From a virus: a stretch of DNA of 64,000 bases. The position numbers and the translations under genes were made by a program. The notes beneath the pieces are model-generated. The model saw only the letters and a list, made by a program, of their open reading frames with translations, ran no database searches and was not told the origin of the DNA. The stretch lies in IMG/VR virus record IMGVR_UViG_3300042894_006927, positions 15,790 through 79,789 of that record. One strand, written 5' to 3'. Position 1 is the first letter of the stretch, and every line of letters starts with the position of its first letter. This document shows positions 26,915 through 42,462 of the stretch, piece by piece.

Positions 26915-27304
26915 ATGGCAAAACTACCTCACATTTACTTTCTTGAGCAACTTGATTTGACCGAACAAGACATTCTTTCGGAGTTCAAAAATTATCGTTT
27001 AGAAAACGCAAAAGCCAAAAAGTTTGTAGAATCAAAAGATTTGACAAACGCTTTAAGTGTTTCAAACCGAATTATTGAAAAGGTTATTCCAATGCTTGAC
27101 GAAGAAGATTTTTCTGATGAAGAAATTGAAAAAGCCAAGCAAGATGCCCTTTCGCAATTTTCAACAAAACAAAGTTCAAATGGCGAAGCCAATGATAACT
27201 CCGAAAATTCTGATTCAAAAAATGATTTAGGAATTTTGGGTTGGGTTTTGGGCGGTGCTGCCCTACTTGGCGGTGCTTTTTTCTTATTCAAGCGTAAAAA
27301 ATAA
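26915..27304 (+). CDS. Tail-anchored membrane protein
   Basis: C-terminal LGILGWVLGGAALLGGAFFLF-KRKK. Confidence 0.7.
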   Translation: MAKLPHIYFLEQLDLTEQDILSEFKNYRLENAKAKKFVESKDLTNALSVSNRIIEKVIPMLDEEDFSDEEIEKAKQDALSQFSTKQSSNGEANDNSENSDSKNDLGILGWVLGGAALLGGAFFLFKRKK

Positions 27305-27879
27305 TGCTCGTTTGTAATTATAGGAGTTTTGAAGGTCTGCCCCTGCCGAATGTTAGAACAATATCGGGTGGGTTAGGTCGGTATGGACTTGACATAATTA
27401 CAATGGTGGCACGAAATGAAACGGGAACGGCTCAACAAGTTGATTTCTTTTCCCGTAGCAATCCCGCAGGGGTTCGTGTCAGTAACGATGCAATTTCTAT
27501 GAGTGGGCTTATTACCCGTACCCAAGCAAGTCCTCTTGTTATTACAAAAGGGAAATTCTTTGCAAGTGGCGAAAATTCTATTGAGCAACAAAATCAACCT
27601 TTGCTGATTTACACAAAAACCGCATCGGGGGCTTACGACCAAATTCAAATGAATCCGAGTGCGTACCAATCTTCTCTGCGAACAAGTCAATACCCTATTG
27701 ACATTCCATTGAAAGCAATTATTGATAGCCAAAGTAGTTTCTCAACAACCATTTTGCCTAACACTACAATCCGTATAGTGTTAAAGAGTTTCCAACCGCT
27801 TAATAAGTCGAAGGATTTACGGGCATTTCGTGAATTTATGGGAATAAAATGGCAGAAACAAAAGAAATTTGGATTTTAG
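27304..27879 (+). CDS. Capsid-protein paralog (candidate second or minor single jelly-roll)
   Basis: Aligns by eye along its length with 30284..31039 (RNETGTAQQV/TNSTASTQDV, PAGVRV/PAGTSV, QASPLVI/QNSPMMV, PSAYQSSL/PLAFRSSL, IIDSQS/VINQDS). Confidence 0.6.
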   Translation: MLVCNYRSFEGLPLPNVRTISGGLGRYGLDIITMVARNETGTAQQVDFFSRSNPAGVRVSNDAISMSGLITRTQASPLVITKGKFFASGENSIEQQNQPLLIYTKTASGAYDQIQMNPSAYQSSLRTSQYPIDIPLKAIIDSQSSFSTTILPNTTIRIVLKSFQPLNKSKDLRAFREFMGIKWQKQKKFGF

Positions 27880-28262
27880 AAACCGCAAAAGCATACGAAG
27901 AAAAACTTGCCACACGCATCCGCAAGAATACTTCATTGAAAAGCCGTTATCCCAAAATGCTAATTAAAGCAAGGATTGACTTTGTTTTTTTTGTCGTTTC
28001 CTTATATTTCGGGCTTGACAAAAATTGCTTTTATGAAAAGAAACGGCAGGGCGGACTTCCATCAAATTTTTCAGAAATTCGGGGGTTTGCATTTGCATTG
28101 CTAAAGCAACGATACAACTACTCAAACGAAATGATTTCATTACACACAAAATTTTCACAAAATTGGATTGCAAGGTGCATCTACAAGTTTTCGATTTCGG
28201 AAAATTCCGAGTTTCAAAAATGCGAACTGATTTCAAAACAAATAGCCAATTCTAACTTATGA
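27849..28262 (+). CDS. HTH protein resembling the DnaA C-terminal domain
   Basis: VSLYFGL..EIRGFAFALLKQRYNYSNEMIS..SQNWIARCI. Confidence 0.45.
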   Translation: MAETKEIWILETAKAYEEKLATRIRKNTSLKSRYPKMLIKARIDFVFFVVSLYFGLDKNCFYEKKRQGGLPSNFSEIRGFAFALLKQRYNYSNEMISLHTKFSQNWIARCIYKFSISENSEFQKCELISKQIANSNL

Positions 28263-29155
28263 GAGGTCGTAAAAAAATAATTGTTGACAAAGCGGAAGAT
28301 GCCACAATTCTTTCAGAACCCGAATTGATGAAGCCAATGGGGGCGACACAATCGCCTTTGCTTGACCCAATTTCTACCGAAGCATCGGGAGAAGGTTCGG
28401 GAAAAGCAAAAATCCTTCAAAATTTAGGGGGGGCTACTTCTGACGACACCTTTGATGAAAACGATGATAATTTTGAAAGTAACCAACCCGAACCGAAAGT
28501 TAGAAGCCAAAAAAAGCAATCGGCAAGTTTTAATTCTGAAAGCGTAATTTCCGACAATAATTTTCCCGAACCACCCGAATCAAATTTTGATGAACCCGAT
28601 GAATTTGATGAAGAATATGAAGAAGGGTCTAACGACCTTCCCGAAGGATATTTAGACAAGGAAATTCCAAAACAAGCGAAATTCATTACCGACCTTGTTA
28701 CTAATTTGCTTGAAACATTGATTTTGCAGAAATACGCTATTGATGTTGATAGCGTGAGGACTTCCTTAATGGAAATTTCCGATATGCAACAACAAGTTCC
28801 GAATGTAATCAAAGGTCTTAATGACTACAATATGGGATTTAAAAATGCCATAGAGTTTACCAAAGATGAAAAGAAACTTATTGTTACGGGATTGGTAAAC
28901 ATTCTGAAAAAATACCCTGCAATTTCAGACAAACTAACGGGGGAAGCACAATTAGGTTTGGCTATTTTAACGATTGGATTGACTAAATTAGGCGTTTTAA
29001 AACAAATGAGAGATAAGGGAACGGAGATTTTAACCAACATAAATGCCACTTTAAATCAGTATCGTGAATTTTACAAAGCCAAAACCGAACAAATGCGTAA
29101 TCAACAAGCCCAAGCAGAGCAAAGCGGAAACGCAAGGGCAGAACAATATGGATAA
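28259..29155 (+). CDS. Hypothetical protein, acidic N-terminus and hydrophobic helix (possible packaging accessory)
   Basis: Immediately upstream of the ATPase; QLGLAILTIGLTKLGVL. Confidence 0.55.
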   Translation: MRGRKKIIVDKAEDATILSEPELMKPMGATQSPLLDPISTEASGEGSGKAKILQNLGGATSDDTFDENDDNFESNQPEPKVRSQKKQSASFNSESVISDNNFPEPPESNFDEPDEFDEEYEEGSNDLPEGYLDKEIPKQAKFITDLVTNLLETLILQKYAIDVDSVRTSLMEISDMQQQVPNVIKGLNDYNMGFKNAIEFTKDEKKLIVTGLVNILKKYPAISDKLTGEAQLGLAILTIGLTKLGVLKQMRDKGTEILTNINATLNQYREFYKAKTEQMRNQQAQAEQSGNARAEQYG

Positions 29156-29165
29156 TCTTTAGGAA

Positions 29166-30080
29166 ATGGCGATACGGAAAAGCAAACCCACAAATGAGCC
29201 GAGTAAAAGGAAATCGGATAGCCGAAGCAACGGCATATCGGTTATTACGGGTATGCAGGGCGTAGGAAAATCATTTAATCTGAACAGCCGAGTAAGGCAG
29301 TACGCCCAATTTCATAAACGCCCCGTAATTGTCTATGATGTAAACGATGAATATGCTGATTATGAAATTGTGCGTTGGTCTGACATTAAAAACCTAAAAG
29401 GCGGTATTGTTCGCAGAGTATTACCCTATAAGCAGAAGCGTAGCGGGAGTAAGGTAAGGGAAATCAAAGCGTTTGACTTGGAAGATTTAAGAAATGGTTT
29501 TTTTTATTTGCTTGAAAACTTTAAAAACGGGTGTTTAGTATTGGATGATTTTAATTCCTACACTATTTCGACACGAAAGACAAACATCCTTTCTACTCTG
29601 ACAAGGGCAAGGCATCACGGGTTGGATATAATTATTGTTTTGCAAGAACTTGGAAAAGTAACCAAAGACCTTTTTGCGAACTCGTCTTATTTCGTAATGC
29701 ACCGACAAAATACTTCGCTTGACATTGAAAGAAAAAAAATAACAAACTTTCCTTTGTTTAAGATTGCAGAGAACATTGTAAATGCTCAATTTCATTTGGT
29801 TGAGAAAATGAATGAAATGGGCAAGTTTTCATTGGAAAGCGAATACAAAATGTATCGTAGTTTTTATGTTGAAATTGATGTAAAGCGAAATAAAATCTAC
29901 GGGTGTACGAGCAGAGAAATGTTCCGAGAAGCAATTAAGAAATACCTTAAAACTTCGGACAAATACCGAGAGGTTTATGAATTTATGGCTGAAAATGATT
30001 TGAGAAAGACGAACAAAGAGGATTTGGATAGGGCTATAAATGAGGTTTCGGGCAGGTATATGGGCTTTTTTGCAGGTTAA
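29166..30080 (+). CDS. Genome-packaging ATPase, A32/FtsK-HerA superfamily
   Basis: ITGMQGVGKS Walker A, IVYDVNDEY, CLVLDD Walker B, ARHHGLDIIIVLQ (Arg finger plus Gln sensor); adjacent to the capsid gene. Confidence 0.8.
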   Translation: MAIRKSKPTNEPSKRKSDSRSNGISVITGMQGVGKSFNLNSRVRQYAQFHKRPVIVYDVNDEYADYEIVRWSDIKNLKGGIVRRVLPYKQKRSGSKVREIKAFDLEDLRNGFFYLLENFKNGCLVLDDFNSYTISTRKTNILSTLTRARHHGLDIIIVLQELGKVTKDLFANSSYFVMHRQNTSLDIERKKITNFPLFKIAENIVNAQFHLVEKMNEMGKFSLESEYKMYRSFYVEIDVKRNKIYGCTSREMFREAIKKYLKTSDKYREVYEFMAENDLRKTNKEDLDRAINEVSGRYMGFFAG

Positions 30081-30227
30081 TAATTGGGTTTTTAAGTTAT
30101 TTATTGTGTATTTGCAAGAAACTTAAAATCAGCAAGTTGCAATATGAATGGGAATGTTATATCATTTAAAATTCCTTTTTAATTCTTTTTCTTAATAATT
30201 GAAATGTTTATTCTACGGAATTGAGTG

Positions 30228-30235
30228 TAAATTTG
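30228..30235 (+). promoter_or_regulatory. Bacteroidota -7 element for the major capsid gene
   Basis: TAAATTTG in the 200-bp AT-rich gap before 30284. Confidence 0.5.
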
Positions 30236-30283
30236 ACTGATAAATCATTTAAACACTCACTTGCGAGGTAAAACAAATCAATT

Positions 30284-31039
30284 ATGAAAAATCGTATCAC
30301 TTCTCTTGAAAATGCTATGGAACGGAATTTCCGTAACTATGGCGGCTATAATGACTTCTCTATGGGTCAGTATGGCGATGGAACATTCCTTAACGCCAAT
30401 GGCGGTGGGGCAGTTCCCGTTTCCCGTTTGAATCCAAACGCACGGCTTTACACTTTGGTAATAACCAATAGTACGGCAAGTACGCAGGATGTTATCATTC
30501 TAAACGCAGGGGATGGCGTACCTCCTACTTCTGCTTCCGTTCCCGCAGGAACATCGGTTACTTTGCAACAAAGTTCTTACAATCGGTTATTGACCGAATC
30601 CCAAAACTCTCCAATGATGGTAGCGGGTTGTAAGGTGTCGGTAAAAGATGCAAGTCAATTCAGTAATGTTTGGACTTTGGCATACCTAAATGCCGCAGGT
30701 TTGTTGCAACAAGCAACTCTTTCGCCTTTGGCGTTCCGTTCTTCTCTGCAAAACTTGGCAACGCAGATTGACCTTTCCGAAGATGATTTCCAATATGTTA
30801 TCAACCAAGATAGCCGTTGGACAATCCCCGTGAATGGCACTTCTTCCGTTTCGGGTGGAGAGAGCATCACGCTGAACTTGTTTGTTAAATCGCAAATCCA
30901 ACCTACCCGCATTTTGCAAGGGCAGAGCAATGTTTCGATTAGCAATCAAGGCGTTCCTTCGGGTTTGCCTACCCAAAAACTTGAAGTGGTGAATCGCACC
31001 ATTGCGGGGGGTATGAATGGCGGAATGTCCGTAATGTAA
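30284..31039 (+). CDS. Putative major capsid protein (candidate single jelly-roll)
   Basis: Beta-strand-rich, low-charge 251-aa protein after the packaging ATPase; has its own promoter element and a strong terminator; paralog at 27304. Confidence 0.65.
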   Translation: MKNRITSLENAMERNFRNYGGYNDFSMGQYGDGTFLNANGGGAVPVSRLNPNARLYTLVITNSTASTQDVIILNAGDGVPPTSASVPAGTSVTLQQSSYNRLLTESQNSPMMVAGCKVSVKDASQFSNVWTLAYLNAAGLLQQATLSPLAFRSSLQNLATQIDLSEDDFQYVINQDSRWTIPVNGTSSVSGGESITLNLFVKSQIQPTRILQGQSNVSISNQGVPSGLPTQKLEVVNRTIAGGMNGGMSVM

Positions 31040-31066
31040 ATTGCTCAATGGAGTAATGTCCATAAC

Positions 31067-31104
31067 AAAAGGGGGCGGGGTACTTTTGCCCCGCCTTTTT
31101 TTTT
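31067..31104 (+). terminator. Rho-independent terminator after the capsid gene
   Basis: GGCGGGGTA-CTTT-TGCCCCGCC stem followed by T9. Confidence 0.85.
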
Positions 31105-31119
31105 ACTAAAAAGAATTTT

Positions 31120-31641
31120 ATGCAACCAACATTAGTCGGCACTATTATTCAGCAAAACTTTTCGGGTGTTCAGCAACTTGCTCAAAAAATGGGCTATCCC
31201 GTTCCGCAAACGCCCCAAGAAGCACAAACTTTTTTCGTAAACCTTCGTGATAACGAAGCACCACAAGATTTTGCCCGATATGTTATGTCGGTTCATCCGA
31301 ATTGGCAACTCTTTGGAAAAAACATTTGCAACACTATGTTGCTAAACAATAATTCTCAACCTATGCAATACCGAAACGCTTGTTGCGGGTTTGTAAATGC
31401 CGATGGTAGCCAAAACGGAAATGGCAACGGAAACGGAAACGGAAACGGCAATGGAAACCAAATGCAAAATAACCAACAAACCAACCAACAAATTGAAATC
31501 CCGCAAGAATTTAGGCAGGGATTTGATTTTCTTTCACAAAGAATTGGTGAAATTGCAAGTACCCGAAATCAGAATCAGATTATTCAATACGGACTTGTTT
31601 TCGTAGTCGGATTGGTAGCGGGAAAGGTATTGTTCAAATAA
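31120..31641 (+). CDS. Tail-anchored virion membrane protein
   Basis: YRNACCG and FVNADG motifs, (GN)n linker, C-terminal TM. Confidence 0.7.
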   Translation: MQPTLVGTIIQQNFSGVQQLAQKMGYPVPQTPQEAQTFFVNLRDNEAPQDFARYVMSVHPNWQLFGKNICNTMLLNNNSQPMQYRNACCGFVNADGSQNGNGNGNGNGNGNGNQMQNNQQTNQQIEIPQEFRQGFDFLSQRIGEIASTRNQNQIIQYGLVFVVGLVAGKVLFK

Positions 31642-31650
31642 AAAAATTTT

Positions 31651-32139
31651 ATGCTTGAATATCGAAATAACAACGGAAAAGTAGGCGGTAAAATACTTGC
31701 TGAACAAGTTATGTTTAATCGTTCAAAAATGAACGAATTGATGGCTCGTTTTGGCTACAATACCGAAAATTTAAGCGATTATCAACTCGTTTCCCTTATG
31801 GGCGATTTGTCGTTTAAAAACAAGCAATTTGTTCCAACACTTGCAACCTACATAAACACTAATTTTAGGGGTTTTGTGGGGGAAATTGTAGCGGGAATTG
31901 GCGGTTTAGTAACTGCACTTGATGATGCTTTTAAAACATCAGATGATGAAACTCGGCAAACCCAAGCCCAAGCAGAATTAGAAAGGGCAAAAGCAGATGC
32001 CGAACAAGCGAAAGCAGATTCGGAACGGGCTTCTTCATCCGCAAAAATGTGGACTTATATTGGCGTTTCCGCAGTCGTTGTTATCGGTGTTGTAGCGGGT
32101 GTAATTCTTTATCGTAGAAGGTCTAAAAAATCGGTGTAA
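31651..32139 (+). CDS. Tail-anchored virion membrane protein
   Basis: Coiled coil, C-terminal TM plus RRRSKK. Confidence 0.7.
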   Translation: MLEYRNNNGKVGGKILAEQVMFNRSKMNELMARFGYNTENLSDYQLVSLMGDLSFKNKQFVPTLATYINTNFRGFVGEIVAGIGGLVTALDDAFKTSDDETRQTQAQAELERAKADAEQAKADSERASSSAKMWTYIGVSAVVVIGVVAGVILYRRRSKKSV

Positions 32140-33737
32140 TGGCTATTGACAAAGTTAAATATCCTTTTTCCGCAAAACTTGTGGAAATTATTGGTATGCA
32201 AAATGACTTTGCAAATCCTTGTCAAATTGATTTAACTGCCGATATTGCTTTAGCCAAAAAAGTATTAGAGCAGCCATCGGTAGGACTTGATTGGGGCAAA
32301 TCTTATTTTTTGTATAAATTGGGAAGTAATGCAAAAGGAGTTGATACCTTAACGGGCATACAAAAAATAACGATGCCCTCAAAGCCAACGAACAAAACGC
32401 CCGACCAAATTAGTGCCGTTTTAAACGCAATAAAAGTAAATGCAGATGATACTGCGAAAAGGTTTGGAAGCCCCGAACTTTTTGAACTTTTTACTAAAAT
32501 TTTTTACGATGAAATAACCAACGAGTGCCGAGAGCATCAAAGAAACCACGAAATTTGGACACCCATTTTAGGTGCGGATTATGTAATTCAATTTACCGAC
32601 CCGCTTTTAAAACAACGAGGGGCAACCATTGAAAGCGTTTCACCTGCAATTCGTGAGCAAATTCGCCCCGTTTTCCTAAACTTTGAAAATTCTCTACGGC
32701 ACTTAACCGCTTTAGAAAAAAAGGCGGATTATTTGGAACAAGACATTCAAACATACAATACTTGGATAAGCGAAATTGAAGAATTAACAAGGGATAATTC
32801 AAGCGATAAACTTTCTTTGGCTTTGCGTAAATATGGTTCAAGTTGTACGCCTATTTTGGCAAGAAGAAATGGCATTTTAGAGCAGGGCAGTATGGAAGCC
32901 TACCCAAGATGGGGGGGCAATAAGAATTGGTCGCAAGGTTGGCATTGTATTTTAGAGAAAGGTATGCCTAAATATAGGGCTACACATCCCGAAGCAGTTG
33001 CAGACCCGTTAGGTCAAGCACAATTTAGGGGCGACCAAATAAACGCTTTAAGCCTTCGTTTAGCGGCTTTTAAGAGTGAAAGAGCAAGGTTTAAAGTATT
33101 GCTCAAAAATGTAATTGATACTGAAATCCCGAACCAAAAAAAGGTTGTTGCGGAAAAGACAAAATTGTGGAATGACCAACAAAAGGTAATTGTAACTTTT
33201 TTAAATGGAATTGCCGATGCCGCAAGAATAGAGGCAGAAGCCGCAAATCTCCCCGCAATAATTGAAGCCCAAAGACAAGCAAAGATATTAGAAGAAGAAA
33301 CCAAGCGGCAACTTGCTTTAATTGCCGCAAAGGAAGCAAGAGAGAAAAGAACACAATCTTTGCTTATTGGCGGTGGCGTAGCAGCAGTTGGTGTGGCATA
33401 TTTTAGTACGAGGGGTGCAGGTGGTGGAAGCCGACTTGGAAACATTGCCGTAGGTGCATTGATGTTAGGCGGTTTAGGGTATGGAATTTATACATATATG
33501 AAAGCCCCCAAAGAAGTTGAGGAATTACCTACTAACGACCAACAAGCAACAATAAGTGCCAACGCTTTAGCGAGTTTGACAAGAAAAAATGCAATGTATT
33601 TTGGTAAAGTTTATGTAAACGAGAAAAGGCAATGTAGTGGCAGAATGACACTTGAACAACAAAGGGCGTGTGAATCCCAATTTACTGCGTTTTCGAGTTT
33701 TATGGGTATGCCAATGGGTTCAACGGGAAATTCTTAA
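32139..33737 (+). CDS. Coiled-coil membrane protein with two TM segments
   Basis: Long helical region; LLIGGGVAAVGVAYF and IAVGALMLGGLGYGIY. Confidence 0.7.
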   Translation: MAIDKVKYPFSAKLVEIIGMQNDFANPCQIDLTADIALAKKVLEQPSVGLDWGKSYFLYKLGSNAKGVDTLTGIQKITMPSKPTNKTPDQISAVLNAIKVNADDTAKRFGSPELFELFTKIFYDEITNECREHQRNHEIWTPILGADYVIQFTDPLLKQRGATIESVSPAIREQIRPVFLNFENSLRHLTALEKKADYLEQDIQTYNTWISEIEELTRDNSSDKLSLALRKYGSSCTPILARRNGILEQGSMEAYPRWGGNKNWSQGWHCILEKGMPKYRATHPEAVADPLGQAQFRGDQINALSLRLAAFKSERARFKVLLKNVIDTEIPNQKKVVAEKTKLWNDQQKVIVTFLNGIADAARIEAEAANLPAIIEAQRQAKILEEETKRQLALIAAKEAREKRTQSLLIGGGVAAVGVAYFSTRGAGGGSRLGNIAVGALMLGGLGYGIYTYMKAPKEVEELPTNDQQATISANALASLTRKNAMYFGKVYVNEKRQCSGRMTLEQQRACESQFTAFSSFMGMPMGSTGNS

Positions 33738-33750
33738 ATTTGAATAAAAT

Positions 33751-34731: not shown

Positions 34732-35033
34732 TGAGAATAACAAACTATTCCGTTCCAAACGACGAACAAATGCGAGAAATTGAAGGTCGGTATTTTATTC
34801 CCCAAGAGATTGTTGACCAAGTGGCTTATGCGGTTAATAAGGGCAAAGAAATTGTTGAAAATGTAACTACGCCAACAAACGGAAATCAAGGTGGCGGTGC
34901 AAACAATGGAAATCAGCAGAAAAATGGCGGTACAAACATTGGAAAACCATTGCTTTATACGGGTGGTGCTATTGTTTTAGGACTTGCCGTTTATTTTGGT
35001 TACAAGTATTACACAAAAACCCTTAAAAAATGA
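34731..35033 (+). CDS. Small tail-anchored membrane protein
   Basis: C-terminal TM plus KYYTKTLKK. Confidence 0.7.
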   Translation: MRITNYSVPNDEQMREIEGRYFIPQEIVDQVAYAVNKGKEIVENVTTPTNGNQGGGANNGNQQKNGGTNIGKPLLYTGGAIVLGLAVYFGYKYYTKTLKK

Positions 35034-35206
35034 GAACATTAGACGACATTGAGCAAAAAAGTGATAAAAAAACATTGTCTGATAAAGTGAAAAATTTACC
35101 AACGAGTACAAAAATTGCGGTTGCCGTAGTTGTTTTAGGCGGTATGTTTTTTGCGTATCGAAAATTCTTTGTAAAAAAAGCAGAACCGAACATTATTGTT
35201 GACTAA
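35030..35206 (+). CDS. Small membrane protein (58 aa, not in the ORF track)
   Basis: MRTLDDIEQK..KIAVAVVVLGGMFFAYRKFF..VD*; coupled to both neighbours (ATGA, TAATG). Confidence 0.7.
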   Translation: MRTLDDIEQKSDKKTLSDKVKNLPTSTKIAVAVVVLGGMFFAYRKFFVKKAEPNIIVD

Positions 35207-36003
35207 TGGAGAACAAACTGCGGTATAGTTTGAATGTAAATTCGCCCTTTAAGGTGTTTCTTGACTTGCAAGTTAAGAAAGCACCCGTGCGAGTATTTAT
35301 CCGCATTTTTAATCCAAATTTGCCAAATACATTTGCTTATTCACGAAAGCAAGATTTTGAAGTTCCAACATCGTTCAATTACAAAATCGGAGTTCCCGAT
35401 TTTATTCCCCCGCTTGTTTTGGAAGTTTATACTGACAAAAATGAACCCGCTTCTGATTATGTAACTGCAAAATTTAGGGTTGAGGAAACGGGAAGCACAA
35501 TTAAGAGAATCCCGATGAAGCATAGGAACGCAATTAAATTTCTGCGTGAATTTTCTTTAAAGGCAGGTTTTTTAGAGCCGAACAAAACATATTCAAACGG
35601 GAAGATTCAAATTAACTATTTGCCCTACATTACTTATGAAAATGGGCAGATGCACACTACCCCCGCAAGGATTCATAAAACGGAAAATTATATTGAGGTA
35701 AGCAAGTTCCATTTTGATAGGATGCCAACACCCCGAAGAAATGCAATTCTTTTCCACGAATTATCACATAATTTTATTTCCCGAAATCCAAATTCAGAAG
35801 AAGAAGCAGACGACCATAGTGCCGACCTTTATTCTTTATCGGGGCTTCCGCCAAGCGAGTTCATTTATGGCTTTTCAACCATATTTAGGCAACACAATCC
35901 AAAAGAGTTTGCCAATATGATGAAAGACCCTAACTATCAAAAATTACATTCAATGCAAGTAAACCGATTGCGTAGAATGATTAACAAAATGTCAAACAAA
36001 TAA
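35206..36003 (+). CDS. Zincin-like metalloprotease in the virion module (candidate maturation protease)
   Basis: ILFHELSH (HExxH) followed by EEEADD (third-ligand Glu). Confidence 0.65.
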   Translation: MENKLRYSLNVNSPFKVFLDLQVKKAPVRVFIRIFNPNLPNTFAYSRKQDFEVPTSFNYKIGVPDFIPPLVLEVYTDKNEPASDYVTAKFRVEETGSTIKRIPMKHRNAIKFLREFSLKAGFLEPNKTYSNGKIQINYLPYITYENGQMHTTPARIHKTENYIEVSKFHFDRMPTPRRNAILFHELSHNFISRNPNSEEEADDHSADLYSLSGLPPSEFIYGFSTIFRQHNPKEFANMMKDPNYQKLHSMQVNRLRRMINKMSNK

Positions 36004-36005
36004 TT

Positions 36006-36713: not shown

Positions 36714-36787
36714 AAAGCAATTAAAAATCAATAATAATTCAAAAAAAAACCTTTACTTTTAATCTCTAACAACAAAAACAAAACGCT

Positions 36788-36997
36788 ATGTTTGAAAATT
36801 TGAAAACTGAAAACTACATTGGTGGAATATCGGGTGGGTTAGTAGCCTACTACGGAATCCGTAAATTTCGCCCAAACACAAATGTTTACCTTCATTGGGG
36901 GGCTACTGCTTTAGCCGTATGGGTCGGTTCAAAGTATGTTGCACCACAAGTTGCCAAACTTTTTCAAGGTGGCGAAGAAGTCGCCCCCGTTGAGTAA
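36788..36997 (+). CDS. Small two-TM membrane protein
   Basis: Gly-rich hydrophobic helices. Confidence 0.65.
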   Translation: MFENLKTENYIGGISGGLVAYYGIRKFRPNTNVYLHWGATALAVWVGSKYVAPQVAKLFQGGEEVAPVE

Positions 36998-37212
36998 TGG
37001 CAAGACAAGTTAAAAATACCGAGTATGCGGCAGGTTTGCCGTATGCCCCTAAATATGCGGTTTCGGGAAGGATAGTGGTTGCCAACGGCAATTACACTTC
37101 CTTCCGAAACTTTGCGGAAACGGGGCAAAAAGCGACAAAAATTTCCCTTATTGGGAAAATAGCCGTTGCAGGTATTTTGACATACTTACTTTATCAATTA
37201 ACAAAAAATTAG
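36997..37212 (+). CDS. Small tail-anchored membrane protein
   Basis: FRNFAETG motif then TM. Confidence 0.65.
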   Translation: MARQVKNTEYAAGLPYAPKYAVSGRIVVANGNYTSFRNFAETGQKATKISLIGKIAVAGILTYLLYQLTKN

Positions 37213-37217
37213 AAAAA

Positions 37218-37691
37218 ATGGCACGACCAAAAAAAACACAATCATTTGGGGCTGAACTTGCCGCAGGTTTGAAAAAAATTATGGGTGGCGAAAAACAAGC
37301 CGAAAAACCAAAGGCGAAATCCCCCGCAAAGGCAAAATCCCCTGCAAAGGCAAAATCCCCTGCAAAGGCAAAATCCCCTAAAGTATCTTTAAAAGCCAAA
37401 GTGAAGCCAAGAGATTTGAACCGAGTTGAAAAAAAGGGTAAAATCGCTAAATTTTTAAGTGCAAAAGGCACTAAAAAACAAACTGCACGGGGTAAAAAGC
37501 AAGACAACAAATTCATTGCTCTACCCGCAGGAAAAAGGATTGCAACAAAAGTGGCTACCATTACTAAAGCGGATGGAACTGCATTTACACGCAGAAACCC
37601 AAATGCAACCGAAGGGAAAATTTATTCCGAAAAGCGTAAAAACCGAGCCGATGTATTCGGAAAGGTTGCTCGTATGGGCGGTAGAATGTAA
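37218..37691 (+). CDS. Histone H1-like basic DNA-binding protein
   Basis: (KAKSPA)x4 repeat, very Lys-rich; ends VARMGGRM. Confidence 0.65.
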   Translation: MARPKKTQSFGAELAAGLKKIMGGEKQAEKPKAKSPAKAKSPAKAKSPAKAKSPKVSLKAKVKPRDLNRVEKKGKIAKFLSAKGTKKQTARGKKQDNKFIALPAGKRIATKVATITKADGTAFTRRNPNATEGKIYSEKRKNRADVFGKVARMGGRM

Positions 37692-37725
37692 TTGTATTAA
37701 AAATTAAAAATTTAATTTAAGAATT

Positions 37726-38253
37726 ATGAGATTTTCAACAATTTTTAGTAGTCCACAAGGTTGTACTTGCTATGACAACAAAAATAGTCAATGTGCCCCT
37801 AATTATTGGTGCAACGAATGTCGCAAGAATCCAAGTAACCCAAATTGCAATATGCGGGTTGGAAATAGGGTAGTGCCTCGTTACCAAACCCAAAGTGGAA
37901 ATGGTCAAATTTATGCTACCCCCACAAATCGCTTCCGAAATGCTATGCCTTTGATGCCAATGGGTATTAACACGGGCGGTTTTGGTATGCCAATGGGCAA
38001 TAGCGGTAGGGATGCCTACCAAAATGCGGTTGGTATGGGAAATCCAACAATGGTTGCCCCTGCTTTTGGAGGAACACAAACGCCAAGTAGCGGTATTAAC
38101 AACTATTGTATTAAATGCTTAAAAAAAGGGTGCGGATGTGTCAGAGATGAAAGAGGTCGCCCACGATGCGACTGCGGAGATTTAACGCCAAGCGGAATAC
38201 GGCTTAATAAATTTTGCAAAAGGCATCCCGAACTTTGTAATGTTCAAATCTAA
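37726..38253 (+). CDS. Cys-rich hypothetical protein
   Basis: Cys clusters at both ends; FRNAMP and YQNAVG motifs. Confidence 0.6.
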   Translation: MRFSTIFSSPQGCTCYDNKNSQCAPNYWCNECRKNPSNPNCNMRVGNRVVPRYQTQSGNGQIYATPTNRFRNAMPLMPMGINTGGFGMPMGNSGRDAYQNAVGMGNPTMVAPAFGGTQTPSSGINNYCIKCLKKGCGCVRDERGRPRCDCGDLTPSGIRLNKFCKRHPELCNVQI

Positions 38254-38266
38254 AAACAATTAAATA

Positions 38267-38497
38267 ATGAAAAACAAAGTTTATGCTTTCGCTAATTTCC
38301 GCAATGCGGAAGGCGAATTATCGGGGCGGCTTCAAATGCCCCAAGCATCCATTGTCGGTACTGCCGTTGGTGCAATCGCAGGACACTTTATTGGCAGAAA
38401 TGCTAAATCGGGTATGGCGAAAAAATTAAATGCCTACAATGGGGCTGCTTATGGTCTTTTAATCGGTGCTTTAATCGAAGGGTATCGGTCAGTTTAA
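38267..38497 (+). CDS. Glycine-zipper membrane protein
   Basis: FRNAEG; GTAVGAIAG and GAAYGLLIGALI. Confidence 0.65.
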   Translation: MKNKVYAFANFRNAEGELSGRLQMPQASIVGTAVGAIAGHFIGRNAKSGMAKKLNAYNGAAYGLLIGALIEGYRSV

Positions 38498-38516
38498 TTA
38501 AAAAAAAGAAAAAGAA

Positions 38517-38981
38517 ATGGGAACTATTTTAGGTTTATCCTCTCGTATGGTCAGCATTGACCCGAATGAACCCTCATTCAACGACCAAATAAATGCCACT
38601 ATTGCTCAAGGAGTTGATAACAATGCTTCTTATTTTCCTTCGGGGGCAAGACAAGCGTTTGCGGAACAAACTCAAACGAAAATCGGTGCTTTAACAAGCG
38701 ACATTTTGCCCGTTGGGGAGTATATGATTCCAAATGCTTATTTGTTAGCCGATGGCGATGTTAATGCCGATGCTAATGCCGATGCGGGTGGAATTGAAGT
38801 AGGTGCTTCTTATGTTGTACCTTCAACTGCAATGTTGTTAGGCAATGTGCTTGGTGGAATCTTGGCTTATCAAATGACCGCAAACCGCAAAGGGCGTGTT
38901 TGGTGGACTATTGGTGGAGTAATTGCGGGTGGCATTGCTACCTCTCTTGCTTACAATGTAGGTCGGGGCTTTAGCCGATGA
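38517..38981 (+). CDS. Two-TM glycine-zipper membrane protein
   Basis: LLGNVLGGILAY and WWTIGGVIAGGIA. Confidence 0.65.
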   Translation: MGTILGLSSRMVSIDPNEPSFNDQINATIAQGVDNNASYFPSGARQAFAEQTQTKIGALTSDILPVGEYMIPNAYLLADGDVNADANADAGGIEVGASYVVPSTAMLLGNVLGGILAYQMTANRKGRVWWTIGGVIAGGIATSLAYNVGRGFSR

Positions 38982-39400
38982 AAAAAGGCGTAGTGGTTGG
39001 AATTGGCTCGGTTTTGCTTGTCGGAATTGCGATAGGCGGGTATTTTCTATGGAGAAATACTCGCAAATCCGAAACTGATAGCGGAAAAGCCAATGGTGGA
39101 GATACGGGTGGGGGAATTGATGTTACCCCGCCTACTATTCCTTCCAACGAAACTTTACCCCCGCCAACGCAGGGATGCCCAAGTAAATCATATACCCGCC
39201 AACGCAATGATGCCTTTCCCTTGAAATGGGGTTCAGAAGGTGCAAATGTAGGTAGGTTGCAGAGGGCGTTGAATATGAAATTGGGCTACAATTTAAGTGT
39301 TGACAATAAGTTCGGTTGTTTGACCGAATCTGCCCTTCGCCAAGCGTTAAGAAAAAATGAAATTTCGCAGACCGAATTAGAATCACTTGAAAATCAATGA
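38978..39400 (+). CDS. N-anchored protein with peptidoglycan-binding (PGBD-like) domain
   Basis: FPLKWGSEGANVGRLQRALN..VDNKFGCLTESAL. Confidence 0.75.
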   Translation: MKKGVVVGIGSVLLVGIAIGGYFLWRNTRKSETDSGKANGGDTGGGIDVTPPTIPSNETLPPPTQGCPSKSYTRQRNDAFPLKWGSEGANVGRLQRALNMKLGYNLSVDNKFGCLTESALRQALRKNEISQTELESLENQ

Positions 39401-39792
39401 AAACATCGTCAATTTATATTTTAGCGGGAACACTTGCTTTAGGCGGTGTTGCAATTCTTGTTTTGGCGTTGCGTAAACGCCCCGAAGAAACCGAATCCCC
39501 TATTGATGTTACTCCCCCAACTCAAAATGGCGGTGGCGGTGGCGGTACTCGGCAATTTTCGTGTATGTACGGAAACGAATTTCCTTTGCAGTTTGGCTCT
39601 TGCGGTTCAAATGTCGAAAAATGGCAAACATATTTGAACTCCAAAAGGGGCGAAAATTTAGCCGTTGATGGAAAGTTTGGTGCTTTAACCGAATCCGCTA
39701 CAAAACGGCATCCCGCCTTTGGAAATTTATCTACTTTCAATCAAGGAAAAGTAAGCGAGGTTGATTTCAATATGGCGACTTTTCAAGGTTAA
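39397..39792 (+). CDS. N-anchored protein with PGBD-like domain
   Basis: FPLQFGSCGSNVEKWQTYLN..VDGKFGALTESA. Confidence 0.75.
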   Translation: MKTSSIYILAGTLALGGVAILVLALRKRPEETESPIDVTPPTQNGGGGGGTRQFSCMYGNEFPLQFGSCGSNVEKWQTYLNSKRGENLAVDGKFGALTESATKRHPAFGNLSTFNQGKVSEVDFNMATFQG

Positions 39793-39808
39793 TGCAATCT
39801 AAAATGAA

Positions 39809-40219
39809 ATGGCAAAAGCATCGTTTCTACCCAAAAAAAATGATTTACCCGATGTTTGGGTAAATTGGTTTGATAACCTTCAAGGAGAGGTAGGGATAAA
39901 TAATGCCCGATTTCTTTGGACTAAATGGTGGAACGAAATTAAGCCAACTTCAAGCAACACAATAAACCTTCGCAATCAAATGGAAGCGAGGGGAATTGTA
40001 ATTGAACCCGAATCTGCTTTAGGAAAAATCGGTGATATTGGCTCTGATGTGTTTTCGGGCATTGGAACTGCCTTTCGTGGCGTTGGAACGCTAATTACTA
40101 TTTCGGTGGTTGGCGGGATTGCTATTATTGGACTTGTTCTTTACAATTTCACAAAAGATGAAAGTGGTCGTGCTGAACTGAAAAATTTAGCATCAAAAAT
40201 TGCAACAAAAGGGATGTAA
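39809..40219 (+). CDS. Membrane protein
   Basis: Trp-rich N-domain, amphipathic helix, TM ITISVVGGIAIIGLVLY. Confidence 0.65.
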   Translation: MAKASFLPKKNDLPDVWVNWFDNLQGEVGINNARFLWTKWWNEIKPTSSNTINLRNQMEARGIVIEPESALGKIGDIGSDVFSGIGTAFRGVGTLITISVVGGIAIIGLVLYNFTKDESGRAELKNLASKIATKGM

Positions 40220-40220
40220 A

Positions 40221-40697
40221 ATGAACAAAAAGCAACTCATTTTTATTGGTGCAACTGCGACTGCGATTGGGTTTTTCTTTATTGGAAGAAGCATTTATCG
40301 AAAAATTCGGCTTGAAGATATTTTGAAGCAGATGCAAACGGCATCAACGGGTGATATTTCTACGGATTTAGGATTAGTTTTTAGCGGTCAGCCATACCTT
40401 AACCAACTTGCAGGGAAAACATTGATTTTATTGCAGGATTCGGTTGCGAGAAAATATGCAAATGACTTGAAAGGATATATTTGCCAAACCTATGTTTGTA
40501 ACACAAACGAGGGTGGAATTTATGGGGTGTTTCAGCGTATTTCAAATAAAGCCCAAGTAGCCCAAGTTTCAAAGTGGTACAAAGCGTTATTCGGAAGGGA
40601 TTTACTTGCTGATTTAAACGCTGATTTAAACGATACGGAATTAGAAAAGGTAAGAACAATAATTGCTTCAAAACCCGATTACGAAATTGCACAATGA
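40221..40697 (+). CDS. N-anchored protein with an annexin-like repeat
   Basis: NTNEGGIYGVF..SNKAQVAQVSKWYKALFGRDLLADLNADL resembles the annexin repeat consensus; ATG at 40221. Confidence 0.6.
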   Translation: MNKKQLIFIGATATAIGFFFIGRSIYRKIRLEDILKQMQTASTGDISTDLGLVFSGQPYLNQLAGKTLILLQDSVARKYANDLKGYICQTYVCNTNEGGIYGVFQRISNKAQVAQVSKWYKALFGRDLLADLNADLNDTELEKVRTIIASKPDYEIAQ

Positions 40698-41218
40698 ATA
40701 GAAAATTAGCAATAGGATTAGCCGTTGGTGGCGGTACTATAATTGTTGTAGGACTTGCTACCTATTTTGGCGTTAAACTTGCTTCAAAGCCCGAAAATCA
40801 ACAAGGCGGTGGCGGTGGTGAAAATGGCGGTGGAACAAGACCCCCAAGCGAAGATGAATCCGTGCCACAAACGGGAACACAAGAGGCAAAAATGTCTTTT
40901 CCCCTTGCGATTGGTGATAGGGGCGTAGGCGTTGCTTACCTTCAAAAATCCCTGCAATGTTTAGGCAAGTATTCGGGAAGCATTGATGGAAAATTCGGTA
41001 TTGAAACATACAAGGCGATTAGAAGTTATTTTACTTTCCAATGGTTTAATTGTACTTTTCATTACGAGTGCAAATTGTCTGAAAAACAATGGAAGGAAAT
41101 TGTCCAACAAGCAAGGCAAAAATGTGGGTTGGCAACTTTCTCTTTACCCGATTCAATTTGGGAAGAATATACCCAAGCCCATACTGATTTTTGGAACAAA
41201 AAACGCCAAGAAAAATGA
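40694..41218 (+). CDS. N-anchored protein with PGBD-like domain
   Basis: FPLAIGDRGVGVAYLQKSL..IDGKFGIETYKAI. Confidence 0.75.
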   Translation: MNRKLAIGLAVGGGTIIVVGLATYFGVKLASKPENQQGGGGGENGGGTRPPSEDESVPQTGTQEAKMSFPLAIGDRGVGVAYLQKSLQCLGKYSGSIDGKFGIETYKAIRSYFTFQWFNCTFHYECKLSEKQWKEIVQQARQKCGLATFSLPDSIWEEYTQAHTDFWNKKRQEK

Positions 41219-41676
41219 TTAAGCGTGGGTGGATAATTGGTGGCGTAATTGCGGGAATTTTAGCCGTTCCAATTACCTATTTTTTGGTTCAGTACAAAAA
41301 GTTAATGGACTACGAAATTAACCCCGACACAATTACCCGAATTTCAAAAGAAGGCAGAAGGTACAAGTATAGGGTTGTTTTTAATTTTGAAAACAAATCT
41401 TCGCTTGGTTATACGATTGAGCAACAAAGTTATGAGGTGTTTTTAGGTAATTTGAAAATCGGTGAAGGAAGTTACAAAGAGAATGTGGAAATAAAGCCAA
41501 AATCAGTAAGCAAATTGCCTATGGTTATGGAGTTTGTTTTACCTACAAACGCCCAAGCAATAGGTTATTTGCTTGAATTGTTTTCAAGCGGAAAAGTTTT
41601 GATAAATGTAAAATGGCAAGTATCTTTAATGGGCTTAAAAACGAACATTGAAAAACAAATGGAGTTTAAAATCTAA
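41215..41676 (+). CDS. N-anchored LEA_2/WHy-like beta protein
   Basis: FNFENKSSLGYTIEQQSYEVFLGNLKIGEG..VEIKPKSVSKL; ATG at 41215. Confidence 0.6.
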   Translation: MIKRGWIIGGVIAGILAVPITYFLVQYKKLMDYEINPDTITRISKEGRRYKYRVVFNFENKSSLGYTIEQQSYEVFLGNLKIGEGSYKENVEIKPKSVSKLPMVMEFVLPTNAQAIGYLLELFSSGKVLINVKWQVSLMGLKTNIEKQMEFKI

Positions 41677-41679
41677 ATT

Positions 41680-42174
41680 ATGTCGAAAAATTCAAAAATC
41701 TTATTGGCGGTAATTGTTTCGGGAATTATTGGCTTTTTTGTTGGGAAAAAAAGTAAGCAATCAAACTTTTCTAACTTTGAAAAAGGCGGTGGAATGTTTC
41801 CTTGCCCCGAACCGACAAAAAATTTGGAATTAAATACCCGTAACCGAAACAAGGCAATTAAAGCAGATTGGATTCAATATGGGCCTTTAAACCTTTCAGA
41901 TTCAGCGTATTACAATCGACTTGCAAAGCATTGGAATACGAGTGTTGGGGTTGCAAAAAAATCTAATTGCGGAAATTGTGCTGCTTTTGATGTTTCCCCA
42001 AGAATGAAAGGTTGTATGTCAGTAGGCGAATTGCAAGATAAAGATGGTGCTTTTGGATATTGTTGGATGCACAAATTTAAGTGCCATTCTGCCCGTACTT
42101 GTTACACTTGGGCGAAGGGCGGTGCAATTACAACTGACAAAGTATCTTATGGTTGGCAAGAAAGAAATCAATAA
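41680..42174 (+). CDS. N-anchored protein with Cys-rich metal-binding module bounded by xxGG motifs
   Basis: FEKGGGM-CP..CGNCAAF..GYC..FKC..RTCYT-WAKGGAI. Confidence 0.65.
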   Translation: MSKNSKILLAVIVSGIIGFFVGKKSKQSNFSNFEKGGGMFPCPEPTKNLELNTRNRNKAIKADWIQYGPLNLSDSAYYNRLAKHWNTSVGVAKKSNCGNCAAFDVSPRMKGCMSVGELQDKDGAFGYCWMHKFKCHSARTCYTWAKGGAITTDKVSYGWQERNQ

Positions 42175-42210
42175 AAATCAATTTAAAAATCAATTTTAAA
42201 ATCAAATCCT

Positions 42211-42462
42211 ATGGAAAACAAGGAACTTATCAATTACGGGGGTGGAATTGTTGGTGGCATTTTAGGAAATGTTATCAATGACCGATTCACCAAATTTGGA
42301 ATGGCAGGGCGACTTGGACTAATTGCCGTTGGTGTTTTTGGCGGTTATTTTTTAACCAAAACTTTGCAGGACAAAGGTGGTTTTAGAAATGCCGATGGCG
42401 GTTGCGGTTGCGGTTGCGGTGGAAAATGTGGTGGCGGTTGCGGTTGCGGTTGTGATGATTAA
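42211..42462 (+). CDS. Two-TM protein with Cys-Gly tail
   Basis: FRNADG followed by GCGCGCGGKCGGGCGCGC. Confidence 0.65.
   Translation: MENKELINYGGGIVGGILGNVINDRFTKFGMAGRLGLIAVGVFGGYFLTKTLQDKGGFRNADGGCGCGCGGKCGGGCGCGCDD

What the first reader, a model, noticed from the sequence alone, without database searches (positions are those of the whole stretch)
27304..42462. Second shared motif [FY]-x-[NS]-[AFY]-x-G in capsid and membrane proteins
Seen: FRNYGG and FLNANG (30284 N-terminus), YRSFEG (27304 N-terminus), YRNACCG and FVNADG (31120), YRNNNG and FRGFVG (31651), FSSFMG (32139 C-terminus), FRNFAETG (36997), FRNAMP and YQNAVG (37726), FRNAEG (38267), FSNFEKG (41680), FRNADG (42211). That is about 14 copies, some degenerate, in 10 otherwise unrelated structural proteins, usually at the edge of a disordered region. 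In both capsid paralogs it lies just before the predicted folded core. Inference: a maturation-cleavage site that removes propeptides, or a capsid-docking peptide. It is distinct from the GG motif, so the virus may use two tags, one for shell/membrane and one for core cargo.
Basis: partly seen in the sequence, partly recalled or inferred. Interest (0 to 1): 0.8.

Follow-up and report, generated by a model that had tools for sequence, protein, structure and literature searches.

The report
Shared aromatic-Asn-Ala-Gly motif in virion proteins
A short peptide, aromatic-x-Asn-Ala-x-Gly, recurs and is conserved in the flexible arms and membrane-side linkers of the capsid and small membrane proteins of an uncultured 80-kb tailless phage, so it is probably a shared assembly tag, but whether it docks or is cut is unresolved.

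Summary
All the listed strings are in the sequence. The core [FY]-x-N-[AFY]-x-G is specific to the morphogenesis block. It occurs 7 times in 5,002 aa there and 2 times in 20,837 aa elsewhere, and 143 order-permuted control patterns average 0.30 in the block. It is a peptide-level motif, because codons differ between copies.

In homologs down to 44% identity (capsid protein) and 25-30% identity (31120 family) the aromatic residue and the Asn are kept, in 2-3 tandem copies, inside regions AlphaFold leaves disordered.

About five of the 14 listed copies are weak: they lack Asn, change in close relatives or have no divergent data.

The residue pattern fits a type I turn: N/S, then A, then D/N/T/S, then G.

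Best reading, about 0.35: a turn-forming docking or tether peptide at the capsid-membrane interface. A maturation cleavage site, about 0.25, is not excluded; a conserved HExxH zincin lies in the block. This motif and the GG motif have complementary distributions.

Nothing was shown biochemically. The scan's other notes on this genome are first-reader notes only, and none were found on other DNA.

The parts
30329..30346 (+). MCP (30284-31039) site 1, FRNYGG, aa 16-21, at the C-terminal end of the N-terminal helix
   Evidence: F16 is nearly invariant and R17 and N18 are invariant in 16 homologs down to 44% identity. The G is not kept (FRNYYDDAG, FRNFWDESA). AF2 models a helix at 2-18 and disorder at 19-51.
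30386..30403 (+). MCP site 2, FLNANG, aa 35-40, in the disordered arm before the beta-sandwich core (which starts near residue 52)
   Evidence: Kept as FLSANG, FVNANG, FVNQVS or YSNANG in homologs. pLDDT is below 50.
30683..30700 (+).
   Evidence: Y134 and G139 are invariant; N136 and A137 are at least 90% conserved. In the AF2 model it is the loop between strands 130-135 and 141-146, with pLDDT about 78-84. Relatives read YRNALG or YKNALG.
31369..31407 (+). 31120 protein, tandem sites YRNACCG and FVNADG, aa 84-96, between a helical N-domain and a C-terminal membrane anchor
   Evidence: In 17 homologs (14 after redundancy filtering; 25-30% identity in the distant clade), N86, C88 and G90 are nearly invariant, and site 2 reads [FM][VI]NA[DT]G. 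The distant clade has a third site, G[FY][KR]NA. AF2 leaves 75-158 disordered and models a helix at 152-172.
37102..37125 (+). 36997 protein (71 aa), FRNFAETG, aa 36-43, just before the C-terminal hydrophobic segment
   Evidence: It reads FRNFAESG in L001, where the protein is 79% identical. No divergent homologs were available.
37933..37950 (+). 37726 Cys-rich protein, FRNAMP, aa 70-75
   Evidence: FRNA is kept in L001 (FRNAVQ); there is no Gly.
38017..38034 (+). 37726 protein, YQNAVG, aa 98-103
   Evidence: In L001 a 133-aa module sits exactly between N and A, giving YQNANG at one junction and FNSAVG at the other.
38297..38314 (+). 38267 glycine-zipper membrane protein (76 aa), FRNAEG, aa 11-16, N-terminal to the zipper
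   Evidence: Invariant in 5 homologs at 68-97% identity. Pfam Gly-zipper_Omp, E 1.1e-5.
42382..42399 (+). 42211 protein (83 aa), FRNADG, aa 58-63, between two hydrophobic segments and a C-terminal Cys/Gly tail
   Evidence: Sequence only. No homolog data could be obtained.
27319..27336 (+). Small MCP paralog 27304, YRSFEG, aa 6-11 (weak copy, Ser in place of Asn)
   Evidence: Paralog of 30284 (E 3e-5). The string is identical in relatives at 92-93% identity only.
31660..31677 (+). 31651 protein, YRNNNG, aa 4-9 (weak copy)
   Evidence: Close relatives read YQNNNG or YQNNSG.
41767..41787 (+). 41680 protein, FSNFEKG, aa 30-36, after an N-terminal membrane anchor; it overlaps a GG-type site (FEKGG)
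   Evidence: Sequence only. Transmembrane segment at 4-22.
31864..31881 (+). 31651 FRGFVG, aa 72-77: probably not a member (no Asn, hydrophobic context)
33690..33707 (+). 32139 FSSFMG, aa 518-523: probably not a member
   Evidence: It becomes FTGFSG in L001 and L004.
35206..36003 (+). Putative zincin metallopeptidase (HELSH ... EEEAD), the only protease candidate in the block
   Evidence: HExxH is visible in the translation. Pfam PhageMetallopep scores E 0.0032, below its cutoff. Protein atlas look-alikes are viral hypothetical proteins and DUF4344 metallopeptidase. It is 94-95% identical in L001 and L004, while its neighbours are 60-90% identical.
29166..30080 (+). FtsK/A32-type packaging ATPase between the two capsid paralogs (context)
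   Evidence: Pfam Zot 2.1e-6; phrog_2666 5.7e-13.

Best explanation
The motif is a conserved short linear element with consensus aromatic-[R/K/x]-Asn(Ser)-Ala(Tyr/Phe)-[D/N/T/S/E]-Gly. It combines an aromatic anchor residue with a type I turn. It sits in the N-terminal arm of the major capsid protein and in the linkers beside the membrane anchors of several non-homologous small virion proteins.

Most likely it is a docking or tether peptide. The arm of one capsid subunit and the linkers of the membrane proteins would plug the same kind of clip into a common surface of the jelly-roll capsomers or of one assembly partner. Tandem copies would add avidity. The result would couple the internal membrane and its proteins to the shell.

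Shown: the block-specific enrichment, the conservation, the placement in segments predicted disordered, the closeness to membrane anchors, and the turn conformation of the in-core copy.

Inferred: that all copies share one partner, and that the partner is the capsid.
For: Block-specific enrichment that is not due to composition, with differing codons between copies.

Conservation in divergent homologs at sites that AF2 leaves disordered, which is the pattern of a conserved island in a flexible region.

Copy number changes between clades: a third site appears in the distant 31120 clade, YNNAM is duplicated in P0185, and both junctions of the L001 insertion regenerate the motif. This suggests selection on the motif itself.

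Residues between tandem copies are invariant: CCG in 31120, and F25, S26, Q29 and Y30 in the MCP arm. This fits a segment that becomes ordered on binding.

The observed residues match known type I turn preferences (N/S/D at i; D/N/S/T/G at i+2; G at i+3; established knowledge). The identical in-core copy is modelled as a hairpin loop.

The motif lies on the soluble side next to the membrane anchor in 31120, 36997, 41680 and 42211.

Only 27304 and 30284 are paralogs, so the sharing is not by descent.
Against: No partner or pocket has been identified.

The local context of the motif differs between copies: a helix C-terminus in MCP site 1, a hairpin loop in the core, and a position ahead of a helix at 31120 site 3. 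It may therefore be local structural punctuation without a common partner.

The pattern was defined after looking at the data. An unbiased exact-pattern scan does not single it out.

Three of the six carriers have only close or no homolog data.

A zincin in the block and a second, cleavage-like GG motif keep proteolysis plausible.
Confidence: 0.35

Rival explanations
1. The motif is a maturation cleavage site, cut after Asn or before the small or aromatic residue that follows it. The protease would be the virion-module zincin 35206 or a host protease. Cutting would trim the MCP arm and free soluble modules from their membrane anchors.
For: The same short motif occurs in several non-homologous virion proteins, at arm/core or anchor/module boundaries and in segments predicted disordered.

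A highly conserved HExxH protein lies in the block.

A second motif, [MFY]xxGG, punctuates the upstream polyvalent-type proteins, so proteolytic processing is plausible in this virus.

The 133-aa module in L001 is flanked by motif copies on both sides, like a cleavable cassette.

Precedents: adenovirus precursors share consensus sites, sometimes contiguous (PMC4246237). Phage 80alpha capsid and scaffold proteins share an N-terminal motif cut by the host protease Prp (PMC5744158).
Against: Asn is replaced by Ser, Ala or Gly at some sites.

Turn-forming sequences are poor protease substrates (established knowledge).

Invariant residues between tandem sites, and a well-conserved MCP arm, would be unexpected for discarded spacer peptides.

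The zincin is unassigned, and its Pfam hit is below the cutoff.

No processing data exist.
Confidence: 0.25
2. The motif is convergent local structural punctuation (turn, helix cap) with no common partner. Each copy is conserved for its own fold, and the block-wide sharing reflects similar Asn/Gly/Ala-rich, beta-rich membrane-proximal proteins.
For: The in-core copy is an ordinary hairpin loop. Contexts differ between copies. N..G in general is modestly over-represented in the block, 48 observed against 34 expected. The unbiased exact-pattern scan is not significant.
Against: The full motif is about 30 times over its compositional expectation in the block (6 observed against 0.20 expected), and the link between F/Y at -2 and NA.G is seen only in the block (6 of 7 against 0 of 5). 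Order-permuted controls reach at most 2. Most copies lie in segments predicted disordered in isolation, where a fold-specific turn is not expected. Copies are gained or regenerated in relatives.
Confidence: 0.25
3. The sharing is a chance pattern produced by post hoc motif definition, and only the MCP and 31120 copies are individually functional.
For: The motif was read out of the same data it is tested on. Exact F.NA.G in 4 proteins is unremarkable against shuffles. Four or five of the 14 listed copies fail simple conservation checks.
Against: 7 observed against a mean of 0.30 for permuted controls. There is independent conservation in two families at 25-50% identity, and new copies appear in relatives.
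Confidence: 0.1

Closest known systems
Adenovirus protease (AVP) consensus sites, (M/I/L)XGG|X and (M/I/L)XGX|G, in capsid and core precursors, with the pVI N-terminal peptide lodged in the hexon cavity (PMC4246237)
   Same: One short consensus is shared by several non-homologous virion proteins of a jelly-roll-capsid virus. Sites lie near termini and can be contiguous. A precursor peptide both docks in the capsomer and is cut.
   Different: The sequence is different (aromatic-x-N-A-x-G). No adenain-type cysteine protease was found here; the only candidate is an unassigned HExxH protein. No cleavage is shown. The host is a prokaryote, and the capsid proteins appear to be single jelly rolls.
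Phage 80alpha capsid and scaffolding N-terminal motif cut by the host protease Prp, shared with ribosomal protein L27 (PMC5744158)
   Same: A short N-terminal motif is shared by non-homologous structural proteins. In that system the peptide is needed for assembly whether or not it is cut.
   Different: That is a tailed HK97-fold phage with one N-terminal F|A site per protein and a known host protease. Here the copies are internal, tandem and next to membrane anchors, and the host and protease are unknown.
Cargo-loading or targeting peptides of protein shells (encapsulin cargo peptides, T4 capsid-targeting sequences; from my own knowledge)
   Same: A short conserved peptide on otherwise unrelated proteins directs them to a shell protein.
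   Different: Those tags sit on lumenal cargo. Here the tag is also on the shell protein's own arm and on membrane proteins, and no pocket is known.
Asparagine-dependent capsid autoproteolysis (nodavirus Asn/Ala, tetravirus Asn/Phe, picornavirus VP0, reovirus mu1; MEROPS asparagine peptide lyases; from my own knowledge)
   Same: A conserved Asn followed by Ala, Phe or Tyr lies in capsid protein arms next to amphipathic or membrane-associated segments.
   Different: Those are single sites inside a folded catalytic environment of RNA-virus capsids. Here there are many sites in different proteins, Asn is not strictly invariant, and no catalytic residue is identified.
Type I beta-turn with G1 bulge (for example N-P-D-G hairpin loops; from my own knowledge)
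   Same: The N/S-A-[D/N/T/S]-G residues match the turn preferences, and the in-core MCP copy is modelled as a hairpin loop.
   Different: A generic turn does not explain the coupled aromatic residue at -2, the restriction to the block, or the tandem copies in disordered linkers.

Membership tests
Viral maturation-protease cleavage motif (adenovirus AVP / T4 gp21 type) | One short consensus shared by several non-homologous virion precursors | tested here: met
   9-10 credible copies in 6 proteins; only 27304 and 30284 are paralogs.
Viral maturation-protease cleavage motif (adenovirus AVP / T4 gp21 type) | A dedicated protease, virus-encoded or recruited, in or with the virion module | tested here: inconclusive
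   35206 has HELSH...EEEAD and is highly conserved. Pfam PhageMetallopep scores 18 bits against a cutoff of 23.7. PHROGs and PDB sequence searches gave nothing.
Viral maturation-protease cleavage motif (adenovirus AVP / T4 gp21 type) | Mature protein termini generated at the motif | not testable with these tools
   Needs virion proteomics or an in vitro assay.
Viral maturation-protease cleavage motif (adenovirus AVP / T4 gp21 type) | Sites lie in accessible, unstructured segments | tested here: met
   MCP 19-51 and 31120 75-158 have pLDDT below 50. The exception is the in-core copy at 134-139.
Shell-docking / targeting peptide (encapsulin cargo peptide, adenovirus pVI N-terminal peptide) | Short conserved peptide at termini or linkers of unrelated proteins destined for the same particle | tested here: met
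Shell-docking / targeting peptide (encapsulin cargo peptide, adenovirus pVI N-terminal peptide) | A defined binding pocket on the shell protein | not testable with these tools
   Needs a capsomer or virion structure, or binding assays.
Asparagine peptide lyase-type capsid autoproteolysis | Strictly invariant Asn at the scissile position | tested here: inconclusive
   N18 of the MCP is invariant. At MCP site 2, Ser replaces Asn in 2 of 16 sequences. At 31120 site 2, two homologs carry Ala or Gly. The L001 junction reads FNS.
Asparagine peptide lyase-type capsid autoproteolysis | Catalytic acidic residue positioned next to the Asn in the assembled capsid | not testable with these tools
   No assembled-capsid model exists.
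Tailless membrane-containing viruses with two single-jelly-roll capsid proteins (Sphaerolipoviridae / Simuloviridae / Thermus phage P23-77 type) | Two paralogous jelly-roll capsid proteins | tested here: inconclusive
   Paralogy at E 3e-5. AF2 gives an eight-or-more-stranded sandwich at 54-204. Foldseek best E is 5e-4, to single-jelly-roll coat proteins. VIA Z scores are 5.4-6.8, to STIV A223, PBCV-1, PR772, FLiP and PRD1 P3. That range can reflect only a common arrangement.
Tailless membrane-containing viruses with two single-jelly-roll capsid proteins (Sphaerolipoviridae / Simuloviridae / Thermus phage P23-77 type) | FtsK/HerA-type packaging ATPase next to the capsid genes | tested here: met
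   Pfam Zot scores 27.8 bits against a cutoff of 20.3; phrog_2666 5.7e-13. The gene lies between the two capsid genes.
Tailless membrane-containing viruses with two single-jelly-roll capsid proteins (Sphaerolipoviridae / Simuloviridae / Thermus phage P23-77 type) | Genome of about 16-31 kb (ICTV profiles) | tested here: not met
   The contig is 79,789 bp. Relatives lie on contigs of up to 85,333 bp.
Type I beta-turn / G1-bulge hairpin loop | N/D/S at i, D/N/S/T/G at i+2, G at i+3, flanked by strands | tested here: met
   The residue pattern holds across copies. Copy 134-139 lies between strands 130-135 and 141-146 in the AF2 model. The conformation of the arm and linker copies is unknown.

The most novel reading that the evidence does not exclude
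This uncultured 80-kb tailless membrane phage uses a two-code maturation system. GG-type sites would release domains of the packaged polyvalent proteins. Aromatic-x-Asn|Ala sites would be cut by an Asn-directed activity, either the virion zincin or an Asn-lyase-like reaction. That second cut would trim the capsid arm and free soluble modules from their membrane anchors. It would be the first proteolytic maturation programme described in a prokaryotic jelly-roll, membrane-containing virus.
Probability: 0.2. Interest if true: 0.8.

Novelty: new variant of a known kind. Interest (0 to 1): 0.5.

Why it matters
Prokaryotic tailless membrane-containing viruses are not known to use shared peptide tags or proteolytic maturation. 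How their membrane proteins are recruited under the shell is also poorly understood.

This motif is conserved, restricted to the morphogenesis block, and present on both the capsid arm and the membrane proteins. That gives a concrete, mutable handle for studying capsid-membrane coupling in a new and unusually large lineage: about 80-85 kb, against 16-31 kb for known viruses with two single-jelly-roll capsid proteins.

If the motif turns out to be a cleavage site, it would extend adenovirus-like maturation logic to phages.

Tried and rejected
- **DNA-level repeat:** rejected, because codons differ among copies.
- **Compositional artefact:** rejected by per-protein shuffles and by the order-permuted patterns.
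- **Paralogy as the source of sharing:** rejected except for 27304/30284.
- **BLOSUM seed scan for unbiased motif discovery:** uninformative, because it was dominated by Trp- and Gly-rich seeds.
- **Exact 4-of-6 pattern scan:** does not single out the motif.
- **Complex prediction:** cores of both capsid proteins plus 31120 residues 70-105 gave no verdict (score 0.00, controls not run) (the first attempt was busy).
- **The look-up of encoding contigs:** The 74-kb and 85-kb relatives could therefore not be fetched, and orthologs of 36997, 41680 and 42211 in the divergent clade remain unseen.
- **Searches for relatives:**
  - Viral-contig scans with the MCP, the ATPase and alignments A1 and A3 found none (A2 was too divergent to use).
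  - Genome contigs found none.
  - GenBank phages found none.
  - The genome search cannot reach metagenome records or relatives of a virus record.
- **L001 insertion:** the 133-aa inserted module has no homolog in this genome.
- **N-glycosylation sequon reading** (NAS, NAT and NTT in the distant clade): dropped, because the window clade has NAD, NAE and NAN.
- **Literature:** searches found no description of this virus group or motif.

Full report
**Setting**

The window is the right-hand 64 kb of a single 79,789-bp virus contig. Genes are tightly packed on the + strand up to about 48 kb.

- Gene 29166-30080 is an FtsK/A32-type packaging ATPase (Pfam Zot 2.1e-6; phrog_2666 5.7e-13).
- It lies between two paralogous small proteins, 27304 (191 aa) and 30284 (251 aa), which share 29% identity over 113 aa (E 3e-5).
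- An AlphaFold model of 30284, built on 16 homologs, has an N-terminal helix at 2-18, a disordered stretch at 19-51, a confident beta-sandwich at 54-204 and a disordered tail.
- Its best structural matches are viral jelly rolls. Foldseek reaches E 5e-4 to single-jelly-roll coat proteins. VIA-align gives Z 5.4-6.8 to STIV A223, PBCV-1, PR772, FLiP and PRD1 P3. These values are middling, so 'jelly-roll capsid protein' is likely but not proven.
- Downstream lie about 25 small proteins, many with one or two predicted membrane segments. Among them are a glycine-zipper protein (38267) and three paralogs with a peptidoglycan-binding domain.
- Upstream lie very large proteins with domains typical of 'polyvalent proteins': ART-PolyVal, LPD23, a Strawberry-notch-type helicase and GNAT.

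The general picture of a large tailless, membrane-containing phage is plausible. It was not the subject of this check.

**Is the motif there, and is it more than chance?**

- Against per-protein shuffles, [FY].N[AFY].G occurs 9 times against 1.5 expected, and [FY]RN[AFY] 7 times against 0.9. None of 200 shuffles reached either count.
- The better control keeps the residue classes and permutes their order. The true order gives 7 hits in the block 26915-42462 (5,002 aa) and 2 in the remaining 20,837 aa of the genome. The 143 permuted orders give a mean of 0.30 and at most 2 in the block.
- For [FY].NA.G the counts are 6 in the block and 0 outside.
- Within the block, 6 of 7 NA.G are preceded by F or Y two residues earlier. 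Outside it, 0 of 5 are.
- Codons differ between copies, so this is a peptide feature and not a DNA repeat.

Two cautions apply. The pattern was defined on the same data it is tested on. And an unbiased scan of exact 4-of-6 patterns does not single out F.NA.G. The statistics alone therefore make the motif likely, not certain.

**Conservation**

This is the independent evidence.

*Capsid protein 30284.*
- It has 16 homologs down to 44% identity.
- F16, R17 and N18 are invariant or nearly so, followed by Y or F. The Gly is not kept (FRNYYDDAG, FRNFWDESA).
- The second site persists as [FY]x[NS][AQ]x[GS].
- Both copies of a tandemly duplicated capsid gene in a distant relative (L007) keep both sites.

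*The 31120 family.*
- It was searched with a small profile and gave homologs at 25-30% identity.
- The linker between a helical N-domain and the C-terminal membrane helix is otherwise unalignable. It still keeps [FY]-x-N-A, then Cys-Cys-Gly, then [FM]-[VI]-N-A-[DT]-G.
- The distant clade has a third copy, G-[FY]-[KR]-N-A, where the window clade has an (NG)n repeat.
- One member has a local duplication of YNNAM.
- AlphaFold leaves this whole linker disordered. The motif is thus a conserved island in a flexible region.

*The other carriers.* The copies in 36997, 37726 and 38267 are kept, but only relatives at 68-97% identity were available.

*The L001 insertion.* In L001 the 37726 homolog carries a 133-aa module inserted exactly between the N and the A of YQNAVG. 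Both junctions read as motif copies, YQNANG and FNSAVG. The module has no homolog in this genome.

**What does not hold**

- FRGFVG in 31651 has no Asn.
- FSSFMG in 32139 becomes FTGFSG in close relatives.
- YRNNNG in 31651 loses its Arg.
- YRSFEG in 27304 is seen only in near-identical relatives and belongs to a paralog of the MCP.
It is conserved (Y134 and G139 invariant) and modelled as the loop between two strands.

A fair count is 9-10 credible copies in six proteins: 30284, 31120, 36997, 37726, 38267 and 42211.

**What it is likely to be**

The residues fit a type I turn. They are Asn or Ser first, a small residue next, then Asp, Asn, Thr or Ser, then Gly, with an aromatic residue two positions before the turn. 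The in-core copy shows the sequence doing exactly that.

Four observations lean toward a segment that becomes ordered on binding, and away from a plain cleavage site:
- Asn exchanges with Ser, and at one tandem site with Ala or Gly.
- Residues between tandem copies are invariant: CCG in 31120, and F25, S26, Q29 and Y30 in the capsid arm.
- Copies come in tandem, and their number changes between clades.
- Turn-forming peptides are poor protease substrates.

My best reading is that the motif is a docking or tether clip at the capsid-membrane interface, used both by the capsid protein's own arm and by the membrane proteins. It lies on the soluble side next to the membrane anchor in 31120, 36997, 41680 and 42211. 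Confidence is about 0.35.

Cleavage remains a serious rival, at about 0.25:
- The sites lie at arm/core and anchor/module boundaries.
- A highly conserved HExxH protein sits in the block, although its family assignment is below threshold.
- The upstream cargo-like proteins are punctuated by a different, GG-type motif.
- The L001 module is flanked by motif copies like a cassette.
- Adenovirus and phage 80alpha provide precedents for shared sites on non-homologous virion proteins. In both, the same peptide also has an assembly or docking role (PMC4246237; PMC5744158).

The two readings are not exclusive.

A third possibility, at about 0.25, is that each copy is local structural punctuation with no common partner. 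The differing contexts of the copies argue for this. The block-specific link to the aromatic residue and the regeneration of copies in relatives argue against it.

**The 'two tags' idea**

The distributions are indeed complementary. [MFYLI]xxGG sites cluster in 4174-25527, with up to 10 per protein. The Asn motif is confined to 26915-42462.

**Limits**

- No biochemical or structural evidence exists for any function.
- The only complex prediction gave no verdict (see Tried and rejected).
- No published description of this virus group or of the motif was found.
- The earlier notes on this genome are first-reader notes only.

Noticed in passing
L007:2-1681: A distant relative (43% identical MCP) carries two tandem copies of the large capsid gene. 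Both copies keep the FRN and YSNANG sites.
   Followed up: partly
L001:17561-18484 (homolog of window 37726-38253): A 133-aa module is inserted exactly inside the YQNAVG copy. Both junctions read as motif copies. The module has no homolog in the window genome.
   Followed up: partly
window 4174-25527: The large proteins carry 'polyvalent protein' domains: ART-PolyVal, LPD23, a Strawberry-notch-type helicase, GNAT and AAA_5. They hold many [MFY]xxGG[EGK][IV] sites, up to 10 per protein.
   Followed up: partly
window 35206-36003: The HExxH protein is the most conserved gene of the block: 94-95% identical in L001 and L004, while its neighbours are 60-90% identical.
   Followed up: partly
window 42211-42462, 31120-31641, 37726-38253, 41680-42174: Cys-rich segments accompany the motif: a CGCGCGGKCGGGCGCGCDD tail, an invariant CC/CxxC between the tandem sites in the 31120 family, and Cys-rich ends in 37726 and 41680. 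These may be metal-binding or disulfide modules.
   Followed up: no
window 37218-37691: A Lys/Ala/Pro-rich protein with AKSPAK repeats (Pfam DUF1388, 6e-7) looks like a histone-H1-like DNA-condensing protein. It ends in ARMGG.
   Followed up: no
window 25524-26147: A GDSL-type lipase/acylhydrolase (Pfam 6.6e-9) with an N-terminal hydrophobic segment sits at the start of the morphogenesis block.
   Followed up: no
window 38978-39400, 39397-39792, 40694-41218: Three paralogs each have an N-terminal membrane segment and a peptidoglycan-binding-like domain. PG_binding_1 passes its cutoff only in 40694.
   Followed up: no
window 31420-31470 (31120 aa 98-115): An (NG)n repeat varies in length among close relatives. 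In the distant clade it is replaced by a third motif copy.
   Followed up: partly
window 44594-45409: The N-terminal part matches the catalytic domain of alpha-L-arabinofuranosidase B (PF09206, 3e-9). It may be a glycan-degrading virion or lysis protein.
   Followed up: no
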